Under the pieces are notes generated by a model, which did not search any database, was not told the DNA's origin, and saw nothing but the letters and a program-made list of their open reading frames with translations. This document shows positions 1,894-63,834 of a stretch of DNA of 64,000 bases, piece after piece. Position numbers and translations under genes: made by a program. Every line of letters starts with the position of its first letter. Position 1 is the first letter of the stretch. This stretch comes from Prorocentrum cordatum (lineage: Eukaryota), in contig CAUYUJ010000259.1 of assembly GCA_963575745.1 (NCBI GenBank), positions 1 through 64,000 of the forward strand. Reading direction: 5' to 3'.

Positions 1894-2446
1894 GTAGCGC
1901 GAGCTGAGACAGCGGCAGTCTGCCTTTGGGGGCGGGGGGGGCCTCCGTCCCCACGGCCGGGCGCAGCTCGGAAGACGAGTGCGCAGCGGAGGTTAACTCG
2001 CGCGCGCGCCCCCCCCCCCCCCTCCACCGGGTAGCGGTGACGATCGTGCGTGGGGGTGGGGGCTGAACACGCCCCCCCCTGACATGCTGGTGCTCGCGCG
2101 CGTATGCGATGTGGCCATCGCAGCGCACCCCCATCCCGACGTGCCCCGCCAACCCGCCCGAGCGTGACGGTGACCTGGGGCCCCCTTCCCCAGGGAGCGG
2201 CCGTTACCGGGGCACAGGGTCCGCCCAAGTGCAGGGTCGGCGTGGCGCAGTGCAAGCGCTAATGGGGAATCGGTGGCAACCGCCAGCGTCGTCGTCGTCG
2301 TCGCGTCTCCTGCCTGCCTCCTCTCTCTCCGCCCTCGCCCAGTAGCAGGGGAAATGGTAGCAGCAGAGCAGGGGGTGTGCGGACGATGAGAAGACTGTAT
2401 CCTTGAGGACTGGAGCTCAGGAGGAAAGTGGTTATTGTATCGAGCG

Positions 2447-2575
2447 TTTCGGGCCGTCTCCGTCAGTTCTCAGCGTTTTCTTTTTTCTTGTTGTTACAAG
2501 TTTTGAGCATTTTTTTTTCAACTTTTTGTCCTTTTGTTATCCAAAATCCGCCTGTAGGGGGGACGCCCGACCTAA
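2447..2575. mobile_element. MITE family A copy (degenerate left end)
   Basis: Right TIR CCTGTAGGGGGGACGCCCGACCTAA intact; left end eroded (TTTCGGGCCGTCTC); flanks ATCGAGCG/CTCCAGCC match 5/8. Confidence 0.65.
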
Positions 2576-2689
2576 CTCCAGCCTCGGACTGCCTCGTCGC
2601 GAGCGGTTCTGGGGGGTTCCCGGATCGTCCCGAACGTCCGCCAGAGACCCGAGGTAGGATCCGATCACCCAGGCCTCGCGCTGTAAACA

Positions 2690-4560: not shown

Positions 4561-5646
4561 CGGCAGCTCTTCGCCCCGGGGGGCACGAGCTTCCCAGCGC
4601 CCTCGGGGGGGATCGCACCCCTGAGGGCGGGAGAGTTCCTCTCGTGCCGCTCTTGGCCCGCCGAGCTCATGAAGCCCCCTGCTCCTCCCTGTGAGGGGGG
4701 GTGGGAGGCGAGGGGGGGGGTCGAGTCTCCGGTTTCGAGGCGAGGGGGGGGAGGTGAGGGGGGGAGGCGAGGGGGGAGGGGAGGGCGGGGGGGGGGCGAG
4801 GAGGGAGGCGAGGGGTGGGGAGGCGAGGGGTGGGGGGAGGCGAGGGGTTGTTTTGGGGGAAGAATCGATCTCACACGCCGAGGGTCCCACGAGGGGTCGG
4901 CGGAGATCGCTCTTCGCCCGCGGGGCTGCGGGAGGCCCTGCGTCTCTTCTGGGCCCTGGCCTCACTGACTTGGAGCAGCCCCCCGGCCCCGAAGGCGCGA
5001 GCGCCACTGCAAGGCGCAGGCTCCCTGCGATTCTGTTGGGGGAGAGTTCAGGGAAGCCTGCTCCACCTGGGCCCGGGCCTCACCTGCGTTAGACAATCCC
5101 GCAGACCCGAACACGCGAGCGCCACTACGAAGACACAGGCTCCTTGGGATTTGTTCTTGGGGAGGGAGTTCAGGAAACCCTGCTCCTCCTGGACCCTGGC
5201 GTAGCAACCCCCCAAACCCGAAAACGCGAGCGTCATTGCAAGACACAGGCTGCCTGCGATTTTTTGCGGATAGATTTCGGGGTAGGGCTTTGCGCGGGGA
5301 GCAACGGCGAACGCAAGTTATACCCCCAATTCATCTGCCGATTCACGTAACCTCGGTTAATCAGCGATTTCGGGATTGGGATCGTGTCCTCTCGTGGTCA
5401 TGCTCACTTGCCTCCGAGGAGGGAAAGGTGTCCATCCCGCTACCCTTCTCTCGGTTTGGCCCTTCTGGGCCTCCTGGGAGGCACTCGTCGCCACGGTCGG
5501 GTTCGCCTCGAAATCCTGGTGAGAGCGCACCATGGAAGAGGTCCTGGGAGTGGCGGTGTCGGTTACCGGTACCTCACACTTTTCCCACTGTTGGACCCAA
5601 CTTGCTCGACTCCTGGACCCGCCTCCTTCGCGCATGAGAGACAGGC

Positions 5647-5836
5647 TTAAGTCGGGCCTGTCCCCCTACAGGGGGATTTTCGACGAACCAGCAAAAAACA
5701 CAAAAAATGTGCAAAAATAGTCCAAAAATAGCCTGGGGACTATTATTTGAATATTGTTCGACCTTATTGGAATACTTTTGGGGTATTTTTAATTTTTCTT
5801 TGAAAATCCCCCTGTAGGGGGACAGGCCCGACTTAA
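5647..5836. mobile_element. MITE family A copy, perfect 35-bp TIR, 8-bp TSD AGACAGGC
   Basis: TTAAGTCGGGCCTGTCCCCCTACAGGGGGATTTTC is an exact inverted repeat of the right end; TSD at 5639-5646 and 5837-5844; the terminal 9 bp plus TSD is duplicated again at 5845-5861. Confidence 0.95.
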
Positions 5837-5941
5837 AGACAGGCCCGACTTAAAGACAGGCCGGGGCTGGGCAGAGGGAGCCCCTGCGCACGCTGGGCGA
5901 GCCTTCCCCTCCATCCCTCCTTGCGTTCGCCGGCTGGGCAG

Positions 5942-7740: not shown

Positions 7741-8261
7741 ACGAGGGTCCCAGTTCTAGTGCGAGCAATCCTCAGCAACGACTTTCGAGGCTGAGGTTCA
7801 GAATCTTCTTGAGAAGGAGGAGGGAGAGGAGGAGGAGGGAGGAGTAGACAGACGAGGCAGTATTGACAAGGGGTAGGATTTGGACGAGGATGGGAGGGAA
7901 AAGGAGGATATGTAGGAGGAGGAGGAGGAGGAGGAGGAGGAAGAAGAATCAGGATGATGCTGTTGCTGAGTAGGAGCATGAGGGAAAGGGGGAAACGCCC
8001 ATGTAGGGAATCGAAAGAATGAGAATAAAAAGGAGAAGCAGGATCATGCTGTGTAGCAGGAAGACCGAGGAGAAAGGGGGTTGGACCTGGATGATGATGA
8101 TGATGAGGAGGAGTGAGAAGGGGTACGATTGAGGAGAGGAAAGCCAGAGGAGGAGTAGGAGGGAGTACCGTGAGGATCATTATTTCCATGCACGTCATCA
8201 CCGTCTTTGTCGTTCTCGTTATGATCATCCTCATCCTCACTTCTATAGCCATGCATATTCA

Positions 8262-8283
8262 TCCGTAGCCGTTTTGGCACAAG
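8262..8283 (+). other. Relict dinoflagellate spliced leader (DinoSL)
   Basis: TCCGTAGCCGTTTTGGCACAAG vs consensus DCCGTAGCCATTTTGGCTCAAG, 20/22; 22 nt upstream of the ATG at 8306. Confidence 0.92.
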
Positions 8284-8305
8284 GCTGCTGTCTGTTGTTT
8301 TCAGG

Positions 8306-11300
8306 ATGGCGCAGACCAGTATATTCGGTGCTGTCTTGCAGGGGGTCGCTGCCGTGCTCCTGGCGATGCAGCCATGGATTTGCCCTGCAATCGTCTCTGC
8401 TTGTCCAGCGACGATGCAAGAGATGCAAGATTTCCACACTCAACTACTCACAAAGAAACAAAGTATGCTGAGACATTATGCCAAGGAGTGGAAGACCACA
8501 AAGAGTACCAAGACAGCATTTTTCCTGGCAATGCTGAAGCAGGATGACCCCGAAACATCTGCAAAGCTCTACGCCAAGGTCCTGAAGGGATTCCCCGACT
8601 GCGTCCATGCCGGCATGCATCGCGGCAAGGCTCTGCTGCAGCGTACGGCCCACACGGCAGCCGAGGAGCACTTTGACAGGACATTCAAGTCGTGGGCGGA
8701 CCGCATCAAGATACCCCCTGATTTCTTCCAAGACTATCCTTAAGTCGGGCCTGTTCCTCTACAGGAGGAATATTCGAGAATAGTCTCAAACATAATATTA
8801 TGTGTTCCATTATTATTTTTGACCATTATTATTTTAGACCATTTTGGCGTATTTTTCCCTCTGCTGGACAATGTTCTACATTGTTCCCTCTACGGGAAGT
8901 TTTCCTTATTATTTTTGACCATTTTGGCGTTTGTTTTTGGATTGTGTCTCATTTTTCGTCCAAAACCCCCCTGTCTAGGGACATGCCCGACCTAAGACTA
9001 TCATGAAGCCACTCGTGCTGCAGCCTTCGCCCGCCCTGGGGGTCCAGGCAACGTCTCTGCAGCCCGCTGGCGCAACATCATCACGTGGCCGAGGCCGGGG
9101 GTCCACATGCGCTCCCTGCCCCTACCCCCCCCCGATTTCTGAGGCAGGGCTGGACCTAAACGCTGTTTTACTGGGCTTCGGCTGTGTTTTGTTCTTCTTT
9201 TTGGGGGGGAGGCACAGGAAATCAGGCAGAGCAAAACGAAAGACAAAGGACAACAAAACGACACATAACGTTTAGGTGCAGCCCCGTTCTTAGGGGGAGG
9301 GTGGGGGAGGGTTCGCAAGTGGCCCCTGGAGGCTGCCAGAGGACGAGCGGTGCTACTTCGCCGCCTCCGCCGCCCAGGTGTACGCGGAGTACCCGGGGTC
9401 TTTTGGTGGCCGCGGGGCCGCCGAGGCTCGCAGGGAGACCTCCCTCGTCGTGCCGCGCAGCGCGTGCGGAGATCTGCCTGGCTGCGAGGAGAGCTATGAG
9501 CTGCAAGGCTCGGATGCAACTCCTGGGAGGTCAAATTCTGATTTTGCCCTGGTCCGAAATCCGGGTTACTCCCGCTTGGTCCCGCTTGATCCGGCGCAGT
9601 CCCGCTCAATCCCGCCTGATCTGGCTTAACCCGAGGCCCACTCCGGCGCAATAGCCCCTCCTCCTCCTCCTCCTCCTCCTGCCTCCTCCTCCGTCCTCCT
9701 CCTCCTCCTCCTCCTCCTCCTCCTCCCTCCTCCCCCTTCCCCCTCCTCTCATCATCCTCCTCCTTCTCCGCCTCCTCCTCCTCCTCCTTCCTCCTCCTCC
9801 TTCTCCTCCTCCTCCTCCTCCTCCTCCTCCTCCTCCTCCTCCTCCTCCTCCTCCCCCTCCCCCTCCCCCTCCGACGAAAGCCTCCCAGTGGTTGCCTCCG
9901 AAGCAAGGCCAGGTGCTCCAGCTCGGGGACCAGCTCTCGTCGCACTGCGACCTTGGCTGGCGCCTCCTGGGCACGCTGAGCATCAACGAGGGCGACGTCG
10001 AGACGGGCTTCCGCTACTATCCTCAGGTCGGGCCTGTCCCTCCGCAGGAGGAATATTCAAGCGTGGTCAAACAATCGTCTGGGGGCGTATTTTTGGGGGT
10101 ATTTGTTTGCGGGTATGCTTTGAGTATTTCTTTTTTTTTCTCATGAAGTCGGGCCTGTCCCTCTACAGGAGGAGCATTCAAACATAGTCATAAAACAGTT
10201 TGGTGACGAATATTTGTGTTGCTAGTTCTGCCCCTTTTGGGGGTATTTGTCTGGAGTATGTTTCAGTTTTCGCCCAGAGTTCCCCTGTAGGAGGACATGC
10301 CCGACCTAATACGATCAGAAGAATGTGGAGTCCATGCGCCACATCGATGCTTCACCTGAGAGAAGTTTGTCGAGGAAAAACCATCTCTCGAGCACCGGCC
10401 GCGTCGCATCCAGGCAGCAGTTGGATCACGATGCAGATCAGCTGGAGTTTCTTGTGGCCAAAGGCATGCTTCCGAAGGAGAAGTATCAGACATGGATAGA
10501 GAAGTTTCGCGCCGTCTCCAATCAGCTCCCCGACGGTGGCAACGTGCAATTGACTGACGATACGTTCCGAGCTATAGATCCCATGTATGGGCGTTTACAT
10601 TATCTGGCAGATGGTGATCGTTTGCCTAAGCAGGTGCTCGCTCAACGGGATCCCTCGGAGTGGGCAGCTTTCGAGACCGCTTTTGCGACTGGCGATGTAA
10701 TCGTCATCGACAATCTTCTCACAGAGGAGGCACTCCATTACGTCCGGAACTGGGCCGTTCACAGCACAATCTATTTCGATGCAAAGGCGCGTGGCTATGT
10801 CGGCAGCTATTCTGAAGACGGTTTCAGTGCTCCCATCATCGCTCAGATTGCTGCAGAGCTTGGTGCCGCATTGCCCAAGGCAACACAAGGCCAGAATGTG
10901 ACGCAGGCGTGGGCCTACAAATACGACAACAAGAAGAATGCTGGTATCCAGTACCATGCAGACATGGCCCTTGTCAACTGCAACTTATGGTTGACGCCAG
11001 ACCACGCAAATCAGTTGAAAGGGAGAGGCGGCTTAGACGTCTTTAAGAAGAAGGTGCCGCTCGAATGGGACTTTGACAGGTACAACTCAGACGAGGGCCT
11101 TCAGGACATGCTGGCGTTCATCGAAGATGCAGAGCTTGTCCGGGTGCCATACCGCGAGAACAGAATGGTTCTGTTCAACAGCCAGTATGTGCATAAGACG
11201 GACGACATCGATTTTAAGCCTGGGTATGAGAATCGTCGCATCAATCTGACACTGCTTTATGGAGACAAATACACTCCAGCGGAAGCATATGCTTTAGCAA

Positions 11301-11362
11301 AAGCAAATTATTTAGATTTGAACACAGATGAGCTTTGGCCTGGAAGCAGGCAGGAGCTATGA
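8306..11362 (+). CDS. TPR-containing 2OG-Fe(II) oxygenase-superfamily protein (~544 aa), retrogene; predicted exons 8306-8731, 8997-9047, 9913-10026, 10319-11362
   Basis: Hydrophobic N-terminus; TPR-like helices (AGMHRGKALLQRTAHTAAEEHF; WRLLGTLSINEGDVETGFRY); C-terminal HxD (YHADM)...H (YVHKTD)...R (RRINLT). Introns GA-AG, GC-AG and GT-AG are all phase 0 and give one open frame; the first junction is the least certain. Confidence 0.8.
8740..8995. mobile_element. MITE family A copy forming predicted intron 1 of the oxygenase gene
   Basis: TTAAGTCGGGCCTG...CATGCCCGACCTAA; TSD GACTATCC (8732-8739) / GACTATCA (8996-9003). Confidence 0.92.
10023..10309. mobile_element. Compound MITE family A copy forming predicted intron 3 of the oxygenase gene
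   Basis: Left TIR variant TCAGGTCGGGCCTG at 10023, second left TIR at ~10144, right TIR ends at 10309; TSD TACTATCC / TACGATCA. Confidence 0.9.
10319..11362 (+). CDS. Terminal exon encoding the 2OG-Fe(II) oxygenase-like domain
   Basis: Uninterrupted 347-codon non-repetitive frame with HADxxxVNCNLWLTPD..N, GGL, PYRENRMVLFNS..VH.TD and GYENRRINLTLLYG motifs. Confidence 0.9.
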   Translation, partial: KNVESMRHIDASPERSLSRKNHLSSTGRVASRQQLDHDADQLEFLVAKGMLPKEKYQTWIEKFRAVSNQLPDGGNVQLTDDTFRAIDPMYGRLHYLADGDRLPKQVLAQRDPSEWAAFETAFATGDVIVIDNLLTEEALHYVRNWAVHSTIYFDAKARGYVGSYSEDGFSAPIIAQIAAELGAALPKATQGQNVTQAWAYKYDNKKNAGIQYHADMALVNCNLWLTPDHANQLKGRGGLDVFKKKVPLEWDFDRYNSDEGLQDMLAFIEDAELVRVPYRENRMVLFNSQYVHKTDDIDFKPGYENRRINLTLLYGDKYTPAEAYALAKANYLDLNTDELWPGSRQEL

Positions 11363-13489
11363 CTACTGGTGATGCGCCCTCCGCCAGTAGACGGACTCGA
11401 GAGGGGCATATGGCAATCGCTCTCAACTGCTCAAACACAACGCTGATGCTTTTACCGATAGTCATGCTACTGCTACTTGCTGCTATTGCATACCGCCAAT
11501 GTTACGGTGATTGCCGTTGCATTGTTTTTTTGTGTCAACCGTTGCCAGGCCTATTTTTCCAGACTGCTGCCCGCGCCTTCTAAGAAGCAGTTTCCTTCTG
11601 AGTGGCCTTCCTCCCTCCCCCTTCGCAGACATACGACGACCGGAAGTCTTCATTACGCGGTCCCCAGGAGTCCCGACCCATTCCCTGGGGCCAGTTTTTC
11701 GTCCCGAGTCGTCGTTTGACGGTCTTGGGGCCCGGCGAGGGCCCCCGAGGCCGAAACGTAGTAGAAGACCTCCCGCCCGGATGTTTTCACGACGCGAGCA
11801 TGTTCGGATCCCCCCCCCTGCGCGCCGCCAATCTGTTGGCGGTTCCCGGCGTTGCCTGCTCGGGTCCCGGCAGCCTTCCCTGATGGCGTTTGGTGCGTTT
11901 GGTCTCCACCGCAGGCGTGTCCCCCATGTCCGCCGCCCTGCAGCCTTGGGAGCAGGAAGCGCACCAACACCACCACCACCACCACCCGATAGGCATTCAG
12001 GATGTCGAACGTGGCTAGGGCGAGGGTGCATTCGTTTCAGAGCGTTCCGGAACGCTCTCAGAGCGTTCTGGAACGCTCTGAAAAGGCCGCGGCGCCCGAG
12101 ACAACCTCCAGAGCCGCTGGATCTCAGATAATCTCGATCTATCCCCGCCCGATCTTGCCCTCGTTTGGGCTTCGTCTTCGGATGGGCCCACCACCCCGGA
12201 CCACCGTCTGCCTCTGGCCGCCAAGGTGCCCTCCTCGTGGGCGGCGGCGCATGGGCGCGGGGACAAATCGCGCGTCGCCCATCGCGGGGCGCGGCGCGCG
12301 AAGAGTTTGGCGACCCAGGGAAATTATCTACATACACACCTCGGCCGCGAGCGAGGGGGGGGAAGTGGCGGGACTTTTCAGAAGCCCTCCATTGAGAAGC
12401 TGTCCGTGTCGTCCAGGCAGTCTCAGAACATTTCTCAGAAGGCTGGGTGACTTCCGAGTCTTGTACGAAGGCCGTCTCCTTCTCCTTCTTATTTCCCCCC
12501 CCGTGCTCGCCGCCGAACATCCTTCTTATGCTTCTCTGGCTGCCGAGCTCTCACGAGGAGGCGGATGCGTCTCCGCCCCTGCGCTCGGGAAGGTGCCTAA
12601 ACCTTGGCTCCCCAGGGGTCCAGGCCAGAACGGATGTGCTTTTTATTGTGGTCCATACGGGCTCCCCAGTCCCTTTCGACCCCCTCCTGGGGACTGGATT
12701 TTCGTCCTGGATCGTCTCTTAATTGTTGCCTGGGGGTCCAGACGTGCCCCCCCCAGAGGCCGACGTAGAAGGCTTTGGAAGACGGCGGAGGTCTGGGACC
12801 AGGCGGCAGGCATCGATCCGCAGACCCCTCCAGAACCTCAGATGGAATCTAATCTAGCCGTAGCCACCCTGAACCTCGGCCTTCGAATCAAGATCCCAGA
12901 CGCCAGGTTTTTTCTGGCTTGGAAGCCCAGAGGTCTCTCCAGGATCCAGTGTTTCGTCCCGGGCCTTTTTTTCGACGGCCCCCCCGGGCCGACGGAGGCC
13001 ACCCAGAGGCCGAACATGTCAAAAGCCTTCCGTCATGAATGTTTCACGATTCGCTGGAGTCTGGTGATCTTGAGGAAGTTCTGGAGGGGAACTTATTTTT
13101 TGCGTCGGTGGCTAGGTAAGGGTCGTCTGCGCTGGCGGACGAATCTAACTAAAGGAGGGGGTAATCACAGGCACAATTACTCGTCGACTCCCAGGAAGAT
13201 TTTGAAGCATCTGGGAAGTGGGGGGAAGACGAAAACTCCAGAATCTATTGGTACATATGGGGAATGCTAAGATTTGTGCCTGTTTATTCAATCGCTTCGC
13301 TTACTCCGCCGGCCCGTATTGCATGATCGCTACTGCTTCGGCGCGGGCTCGGGGCCATTTCGGCGCCGCCGGAAGGAGGAAGATGAGGATGGGGAGGGAG
13401 AGGGGAGGTGGAGAAGAGGATGAGAAGGAACGGAGGAGGATGAAGATAAATATGATGAGGAGGAGGAGGAGGAAGAGGAAATGGCGGAA

Positions 13490-14349: not shown

Positions 14350-63834
<49,485 letters not shown>

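What the first reader, a model, noticed from the sequence alone, without database searches (positions are those of the whole stretch)
8240..11362. SL-relict retrogene that is re-acquiring introns
Seen: a 20/22 DinoSL copy lies 22 nt before the ATG, with a pyrimidine-rich AG at 8247-8248 as a candidate new trans-splice acceptor. The gene has a 1-kb uninterrupted exon, whereas the neighbouring host gene has 42-91 nt exons. Two introns are MITEs and the third (9048-9912) has CCAG|G at both ends. Known: dinoflagellate genes are recycled via reverse-transcribed SL-bearing mRNA. Inference: all three introns post-date retroposition, so the locus captures the full intron-loss then intron-gain cycle.
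Basis: partly seen in the sequence, partly recalled or inferred. Interest (0 to 1): 0.75.

Follow-up and report, generated by a model that had tools for sequence, protein, structure and literature searches.

The report
Retrogene refilled with four transposon introns
An expressed dinoflagellate gene with a worn spliced-leader tag in front of it, and so likely copied back from messenger RNA, is interrupted by four small transposon insertions; RNA assemblies lack the first two to the base, and the first has no standard splice signals at any possible cut, so it is likely removed by a non-standard route.

Summary
The relict spliced leader is real (8262-8283, 20/22; 0 of 100 shuffles) and partly kept in the RNA. 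RNA contigs and an 81%-identical homologue support the corrected 620-residue TPR plus 2-oxoglutarate-oxygenase-fold protein. All four introns are hairpin-ended transposons with target duplications, which strengthens 'introns gained after retroposition' (inferred, about 0.8). The 'loss' half is not shown: no parent locus could be searched. Relict leaders and transposon-made introns are both described in dinoflagellates, so that story is ordinary. Non-standard splicing is most likely (0.7); an insertion-free allele or copy is the main rival, since no DNA run was laid. The junctions of introns 3 (acceptor) and 4 were not tested on RNA. This scan reported the same kind of thing before on other DNA of this genome (e1-7625077 and others; unchecked). 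New variant of a known kind; interest 0.5.

The parts
8262..8283 (+). Relict DinoSL, 20 of 22 bases
   Evidence: contig of run X4 starts at 8274 and carries the genomic variant base at 8279
8267..8268 (+). AG inside the relict leader: likely trans-splice acceptor (inferred)
   Evidence: position; pattern described in PMC3229502 and PMC12014239 (passages); not tested on RNA
8247..8248 (+).
   Evidence: sequence only; untested
8306..8732 (+). Exon 1, coding part (hydrophobic N-terminus, TPR-like repeat); 3' border slides between 8729 and 8738
8733..8996 (+). Intron 1, 264 nt: family-1 MITE 8740-8995 plus one copy of an 8-bp target duplication (7/8); no GT/GC/GA-AG cut in 10 registers; in-frame TAA at 8741-8743 if kept
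   Evidence: joint in 3 of 4 runs; registers; repeats; hairpin z -3.87; stop
8997..9093 (+). Exon 2, 97 nt
9094..9331 (+). Intron 2, 238 nt, GC-AG: inverted-repeat element 9095-9329 with a 3-4 bp target duplication that supplies the splice sites; a second element (9145-9286, 8-bp duplication 7/8) is nested in it
   Evidence: joint in 2 of 4 runs; hairpin z -5.0
9332..9507 (+).
   Evidence: covered by contigs of 2 of 4 runs; homologue
9508..9907 (+). Intron 3, 400 nt, GC-AG: inverted-repeat element 9510-9901 (14/17) with an 8-bp target duplication (7/8) that supplies both sites
   Evidence: donor: gene contigs leave the genome at 9509; acceptor from the homologue only
9908..10026 (+). Exon 4, 119 nt (3' border predicted)
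10027..10318 (+). Intron 4, predicted GT-AG, 292 nt: family-1 MITE 10023-10309 with a second left end at 10144 and an 8-bp duplication (6/8); two other cuts (295 nt) fit the protein as well
10319..11362 (+). Exon 5, 1,044 nt to the stop; 2-oxoglutarate/Fe(II) oxygenase fold with invariant His-x-Asp...His
11363..11553 (+).
   Evidence: arithmetic

Best explanation
This is an expressed dinoflagellate gene, likely a reverse-transcribed copy of a trans-spliced mRNA, whose four introns are all small DNA-transposon insertions that likely arrived after the copying, and whose first intron is likely spliced out without standard splice sites. Steps: (1, inferred) a mature leader-capped mRNA was reverse-transcribed and integrated without introns; (2, shown in part) the locus is transcribed and the RNA keeps at least the last 10 bases of the old leader, a fresh leader probably being added at the AG inside it; (3, shown from anatomy) elements of three families landed in the coding sequence; (4) introns 2 and 3 take AG|GC from their target duplications and are ordinary introners; intron 4 is predicted to use a GT inside its terminal repeat, where base changes removed the stop codon that its sister in intron 1 has at the same place; (5, inferred) intron 1 is cut out as element plus one duplication, most likely by the major spliceosome at a near-miss site (GA..AA or AC..AG), helped by the terminal-repeat hairpin that brings the ends together. 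The product is predicted to be a TPR-bearing 2-oxoglutarate/Fe(II) hydroxylase; substrate unknown.
For: Relict leader beyond chance and in the RNA. Open 620-residue frame with 501 identities and 4 gap columns to P0317, so the gene is under selection on both sides of every insertion. Exact joints for intron 1 in 3 of 4 runs from three studies and for intron 2 in 2 of 4; depth is 0 over the interior of intron 1 (8837-8934) in all 4 runs and no contig links exon 1 to the element. Terminal repeats and duplications at all four introns; 4 of the 6 other paired family-1 copies in the window have perfect 8-bp duplications. End-to-end hairpins for introns 1 and 2, weaker for 4. One RNA contig set (X17) matches the window at every base laid and still lacks the element. 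Fold match to PHD2 and BesD (E 2.5e-8).
Against: No DNA run of a strain whose RNA was laid, so presence of element 1 in those cells is not shown; runs X4 and X10 differ from the window at 8367, so they may be another strain. Contigs drop rare forms and cannot show a cut point inside the 9-nt repeat. No parent gene, poly(A) remnant or insertion duplication was found. No tandem leader-plus-relict was seen (contig ends at 8274). Leader decay (2/22) and duplication decay (4 mismatches in 27 positions) are of the same order, so they do not order the events. Published splice-site tables give 0-0.05% other borders for two Symbiodiniaceae and 9.3% for a third (PMC7789003 Table 1), though the pipelines used for free-living species look only for GT/GC/GA donors.
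Confidence: 0.62

Rival explanations
1. Element 1 is not spliced: it is an insertion private to the sequenced strain (or to one of two near-identical gene copies) that kills this copy, and the RNA comes from an insertion-free allele or paralogue.
For: No standard splice site in 10 registers; in-frame TAA at 8741-8743; X4 and X10 differ from the window at 8367; no DNA control.
Against: The rest of the frame is intact and conserved; the duplication already has a mismatch and the element has a private internal expansion; no contig in 4 runs matches its interior at 85% or more, which argues weakly against a young, active subfamily; X17 is identical to the window over 393 + 89 bases.
Confidence: 0.2
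2. The leader relict does not date the introns: the cDNA came from a partly spliced RNA, or replaced only the 5' end of the parent locus, or the gene never had older introns (a late, intron-poor acquisition), so no loss-then-gain cycle is recorded.
For: Song et al. report retrogenes that keep parental introns (PMC5585692, passage). No parent, tail or flanking duplication found. Among hits that carry a name, most are bacterial TPR proteins near 40% identity, so an intron-free origin is possible.
Against: All four introns look like recognisable insertions and no old, decayed intron is left in 1,863 coding bases; a cDNA that reaches the leader has crossed every junction (established reasoning).
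Confidence: 0.2
3. Intron 1 is recognised through a minor-spliceosome-like 5' site: cutting after base 2 of the duplication puts the U12-type core TATCCT(Y) at intron positions 2-8 in both family-1 introns.
For: Both coding insertions have the core at the element's left edge and none of the other 6 paired copies does; both left duplications differ from the right copy at base 8 in the direction that completes it, and the homologue implies the right copy is ancestral. Consensus as quoted in PMC5032977; odd termini are tolerated by the minor spliceosome (PMC3584512).
Against: First base would be C, not a purine; no U12-type branch point seen by eye; the motif is not enriched in the window (12 against 15.8 expected); minor introns or snRNAs are reported absent from alveolates (PMC10639083, PMC11347168, PMC7789003). 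The element and its target bias supply most of the motif; 5 of 49 TA sites in this gene read TATC. 3 of 5 duplication mismatches touch the element end (p about 0.016, post hoc), which could be a transposition by-product (recalled for hAT enzymes; one search did not confirm it).
Confidence: 0.07
4. The joint is an artefact: reverse transcriptase jumps between the 9-nt direct repeats across the hairpin, or the assembly has a wrong base at a real splice site.
For: A direct repeat flanking a stable stem is the usual setting for template switching (own knowledge); one base change would make a standard site; the window shows assembly noise in a nearby duplicated block.
Against: The skipped form is the only one assembled in three studies, a kept element would truncate a conserved protein, and the bases in question match both the other duplication copy and the family's usual end.
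Confidence: 0.08

Closest known systems
Relict-DinoSL retrogenes (mRNA recycling; Slamovits and Keeling 2008, not read, as described in PMC3229502, PMC5585692, PMC12014239; passages read)
   Same: Degenerate leader copy just upstream of the ATG of an expressed gene, retained in the transcript; such genes often have introns.
   Different: Tandem leader plus relict not seen here; no parent found; here every intron can be traced to a transposon.
Introner-like elements of Polarella glacialis and Symbiodinium (Roy et al., bioRxiv 10.1101/2020.10.14.339549; parts 1-2 of 4 read)
   Same: Terminal inverted repeats, 3-8 bp duplications, splice sites recruited from the duplication or the element end, GC/GA donors. 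Introns 2 and 3 match class 14 logic (both sites from the duplication); intron 4 matches class 13's second mode (donor in the element, acceptor from duplication end plus next base).
   Different: In the parts read, every class ends in a normal 3' site. Intron 1 has the geometry of classes 6/8/10 (8-bp duplication starting GA, element end as acceptor) but the element ends in AA.
Non-canonical introns / introner elements of Amoebophrya A25 and A120 (Farhat et al. 2021, PMC7789003; passages read)
   Same: Hairpin-forming inverted repeats, direct repeats over the borders, no standard dinucleotides, exact removal in RNA.
   Different: Host here looks like a free-living, large-genome dinoflagellate whose other introns are GC-AG; the repeat is 8-9 bp, not 3-5; U1 loss is not tested here.
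hAT / Buster-type MITEs (PMC3517528; passages read)
   Same: 8-bp duplication, short terminal repeats, A at target position 5 in 6 of 6 family-1 sites.
   Different: TA at positions 4-5 in only 3 of 6 (CA in the other 3); no transposase partner found.
Euglenid nonconventional introns and Fritillaria MITE-derived introns (review PMC11282704; passages read)
   Same: MITE-like hairpin introns removed without GT-AG.
   Different: Unrelated lineages; border consensus and excision products not tested here.

Membership tests
Relict-DinoSL retrogene | Leader relict in DNA directly upstream of the coding sequence | tested here: met
   20/22 at 8262-8283; 0 of 100 shuffles
Relict-DinoSL retrogene | Transcript shows a fresh leader followed by the truncated relict | tested here: inconclusive
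   Longest contig starts at 8274: relict bases 13-22 are in the RNA, the fresh leader is not reached
Relict-DinoSL retrogene | Parent locus whose introns are missing from the copy | not testable with these tools
   No genome held; metagenome scan found no locus
Relict-DinoSL retrogene | Poly(A) remnant or insertion-site duplication (general retrocopy marks, often lost) | tested here: not met
   No run of 4 A in 11363-11800; best flank repeat 9/10, about chance level by hand estimate
Introner (ILE), introns 2-4 | Terminal inverted repeats and target duplication spanning the whole intron | tested here: met
Introner (ILE), introns 2-4 | Removed from RNA at GT/GC/GA-AG sites drawn from duplication or element | tested here: inconclusive
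Introner (ILE), introns 2-4 | Multi-copy family | tested here: inconclusive
   Met for family 1 (8 paired copies in the window); one partial relative for element 3; none in the window for the outer element 2
Introner (ILE), intron 1 | Standard splice sites | tested here: not met
   0 of 10 registers; the only internal re-splicing option would need a 17-nt intron
Amoebophrya-type non-canonical introner, intron 1 | Inverted repeats forming a hairpin, non-standard borders, exact loss from RNA | tested here: met
   same-strain DNA control missing
Amoebophrya-type non-canonical introner, intron 1 | Direct repeat of 3-5 nt over the borders | tested here: not met
   Repeat is 9 nt (8-bp duplication); works like it, not filed as a member
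hAT/Buster MITE (family 1) | 8-bp target duplication and short terminal repeats | tested here: met
   4 perfect, 7/8 and 6/8 among 8 paired copies; 2 show none
hAT/Buster MITE (family 1) | nnnTAnnn target consensus | tested here: inconclusive
   TA in 3 of 6, CA in 3 of 6
hAT/Buster MITE (family 1) | Autonomous partner with a hAT transposase and the same ends | tested here: inconclusive
   0 matches of the terminal repeat in the metagenome collection; genome not held
U12-type (minor) intron | 5' site RTATCCTY | tested here: not met
   Core present but first base C
U12-type (minor) intron | Minor snRNAs in the genome and a U12 branch point | not testable with these tools
   No genome; reported absent in alveolates
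2OG-Fe(II) oxygenase superfamily (protein) | Double-stranded beta-helix fold with His-x-Asp...His and a distal Arg | tested here: met
   Invariant H216, D218, H295 and near-invariant R309/R310 in 70 sequences; model pLDDT 90; best Foldseek hits PHD2, BesD; activity untested

The most novel reading that the evidence does not exclude
A free-living dinoflagellate removes freshly inserted hAT-type MITEs from pre-mRNA as element plus one target copy without standard splice sites, guided by the terminal hairpin and perhaps by a TATCCT core, and this is the entry stage of intron birth: sister introns 1 and 4 of one once intron-free retrogene would then show the unconverted and the converted (GT-AG) state side by side.
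Probability: 0.25. Interest if true: 0.8.

Novelty: new variant of a known kind. Interest (0 to 1): 0.5.

Why it matters
A relict leader resets a gene's intron history to zero, so such genes give a clean count of how introns come back; here four of four are transposons from three families. That supports, without extending, the published view of dinoflagellate intron gain.

Tried and rejected
GA-AG cut of 265 nt for intron 1: RNA shows 264. Donor inside the left terminal repeat of element 1: gives an in-frame stop. Re-splicing through a one-base exon: needs a 17-nt intron. The AG at 8303-8304 as sole trans-splice acceptor: a contig extends to 8274. A 9/10 repeat at 8245 and 11458 as retro-insertion duplication: chance level and inside the inferred 3' UTR. 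Diverged copy 2403-2575 as a third case of the TATCCT signal: it can be read as an ordinary GT-AG intron, so not counted. Genome search: none held. Metagenome scans for the gene (16 pattern hits, 0 confirmed) and for the element end (0). Protein search for a fragment spanning exon 4 (3 candidates, 0 scored), so the intron 4 junction stays open. Sequence search of solved structures with P0317: 0; with the profile only TPR hits among the 60 shown. Run X19 gave no cover of the exons laid, so it says nothing. Look-ups of earlier findings near this place and by the sequence of element 1 gave nothing. Literature searches for non-standard MITE introns in free-living dinoflagellates returned only Amoebophrya, the introner surveys and reviews; subscription papers, including the final Current Biology version of Roy et al., and the bioRxiv supplements of the P. 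cordatum genome paper (introner tables) were not seen and may bear on novelty.
Full report
Observation. A copy of the dinoflagellate spliced leader with 2 mismatches in 22 lies at 8262-8283, 22 nt before an ATG at 8306. It is the only match in 64 kb at up to 6 mismatches, and 0 of 100 shuffles gave a match at up to 3. The window is repeat-rich and mostly 55-69% GC. No genome is held. Earlier notes of this scan name Prorocentrum cordatum for this genome; I did not test that, though the reported 59.7% GC and introner-rich introns fit (bioRxiv 10.1101/2022.07.25.501386, passages).

Gene model. Twenty of 24 listed runs hold the last exon or part of it. I laid 4 of them on 8200-9650 only. Contigs of X4 and X10 cover 8994-9090 and 9329-9509 and join 9090 to 9329; X17 covers 8994-9082; X19 covers no exon. 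The homologue P0317 (618 residues, from a 2,011-nt contig) aligns to the five-exon protein with 501 identities and 4 gap columns, to the four-exon protein with 436 and 80. The 'intron 9048-9912' therefore holds 222 coding bases and two real introns; its CCAG|G ends are chance.

Protein. Exon 1 has a TPR-like repeat below Pfam's cut-off (E 1.1e-5). Exon 5 has 1,926 relatives at E up to 0.001; those with names are mostly bacterial TPR proteins near 40% identity, with a few eukaryotes. His-x-Asp...His is invariant in 70 aligned sequences, the model is confident (pLDDT 90) and its best structural matches are PHD2 and BesD. It is predicted to be a 2-oxoglutarate/Fe(II) oxygenase; activity and substrate are untested.

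The four introns. Each is a terminal-inverted-repeat element flanked by a target duplication. Introns 1 and 4 belong to one family with 8 paired copies in the window; 4 of the 6 others have perfect 8-bp duplications and 2 have none. An 8-bp duplication points to hAT; the Buster consensus (PMC3517528, passages) is met in 3 of 6 sites, with A at position 5 in all 6. Intron 2 has a 3-4 bp duplication and a nested second element; intron 3 an 8-bp duplication. Introns 2 and 3 draw AG|GC from their duplications, as in Polarella classes described by Roy et al. (bioRxiv 10.1101/2020.10.14.339549, parts 1-2 of 4). For intron 4 three cuts keep the frame: GT to the AG at 10317-10318 (one extra residue against P0317), GT to the next AG, or exact removal without standard sites. 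I favour a standard cut because the left terminal repeat has changed to a CAG|GT where its sister has a stop codon, and because the right duplication copy carries the change that fits the homologue worse; this is inference.

Intron 1. Three of 4 runs, from three studies, join 8729 to 8994, skipping 264 nt with 9 bases of slide; depth over the element's interior is 0 in all 4. P0317 has no gap there. None of the 10 registers is GT/GC/GA-AG; the nearest are GA..AA and AC..AG. Keeping the element, or using the GT in its terminal repeat, stops the frame at 8741-8743. The predicted RNA fold pairs the two ends (z -3.87, 0 of 200 shuffles), as expected of any such element. Against simple acceptance: no DNA run was laid, contigs drop rare forms, and X4 and X10 differ from the window at 8367 while X17 does not. 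I put non-standard splicing at about 0.7, an empty allele or copy at 0.2, and artefact at under 0.1. Within splicing, a relaxed major spliceosome helped by the hairpin is my choice, since GA donors are accepted in dinoflagellates and the downstream exon would begin with the conserved GH, leaving AG to AA at the 3' end as the main departure. A minor-spliceosome-like reading is a lead only: both coding insertions have TATCCT(Y) at the element's edge and none of the 6 other paired copies does, but the motif is not enriched in the window, the first base is wrong, and alveolates are reported to lack the minor system (passages of PMC10639083, PMC11347168, PMC7789003).

Leader and order of events. 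The X4 contig starts at 8274 and matches the genomic relict, including its variant base, so the relict is transcribed and the acceptor lies upstream of 8274. A mature mRNA has no introns, so all four should post-date retroposition (about 0.8). This is reasoning: no parent, poly(A) remnant or insertion duplication was found, decay of leader and duplications is of similar size, and retrogenes with parental introns have been reported (PMC5585692). That any intron was ever lost is not shown. The 'host gene' is unverified.

Novelty. Signal-less hairpin introns are described for the parasite Amoebophrya; four searches of the held library found no such report for a free-living dinoflagellate, with the limits given under Tried and rejected. 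This scan has noted the same kind before on other DNA of this genome, once with the same architecture of a leader-tagged gene with four MITE introns (e1-7625077; also e1-7693921, e1-7629741, e1-7695852, e1-7695824). Those notes are unchecked and are not counted as support. Verdict: real, corrected model, new variant of a known kind, interest 0.5.

Noticed in passing
window 8733-10318: All four introns fall within 21% of the coding length (p about 0.03 for uniform placing, post hoc), and GC at third codon positions is 0.83-0.93 in exons 3-4 against 0.59-0.66 in the others.
   Followed up: partly
window 8739, 10022, 9902: Three of five mismatches in the 8-bp duplications lie on the base touching the element end; both family-1 introns show the same change at base 8 of the left copy. 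Transposition by-product, conversion between the two elements, or selection.
   Followed up: partly
window 8367: T in the window and run X17, C in runs X4 and X10 (changes a codon): strain difference, RNA editing or assembly error.
   Followed up: no
window 8245-8251: Seven bases around the upstream AG match leader positions 5-11; possibly chance, possibly a second leader fragment.
   Followed up: no
window 63417-63631: Family-1 copy with a perfect 8-bp duplication that also starts with GAC and sits in coding-looking sequence; it would face the same lack of standard sites as intron 1.
   Followed up: no
window 5639-5861: Family-1 copy with perfect 25-bp terminal repeats whose duplication contains AG|GC, so it could be a standard intron; its right end is repeated once more.
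   Followed up: partly
window 2395-2583: Diverged family-1 copy whose left edge reads as an exact U12-type 5' consensus; can also be read as an ordinary GT-AG intron near a possible start codon.
   Followed up: partly
window 50839-50916 and 29313-29372: Short + strand pieces with UVR-like motifs (Pfam E 0.00039, just under cut-off, for the first; no hit for the second), probably exons of a long-intron gene.
   Followed up: partly
window 47723-50503, - strand: Broken retroelement-like frames with an RNase H hit (E 0.00021, below cut-off).
   Followed up: partly
window about 14500-18150: Tandem duplication of about 1.85 kb whose second copy differs by many small indels; possible assembly noise.
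   Followed up: no
window 33290-34520 and 39300-40500; N gap 35212-35311: Two arrays of the same satellite unit of about 110-130 nt flank a region with an assembly gap and long - strand coding-like stretches.
   Followed up: no
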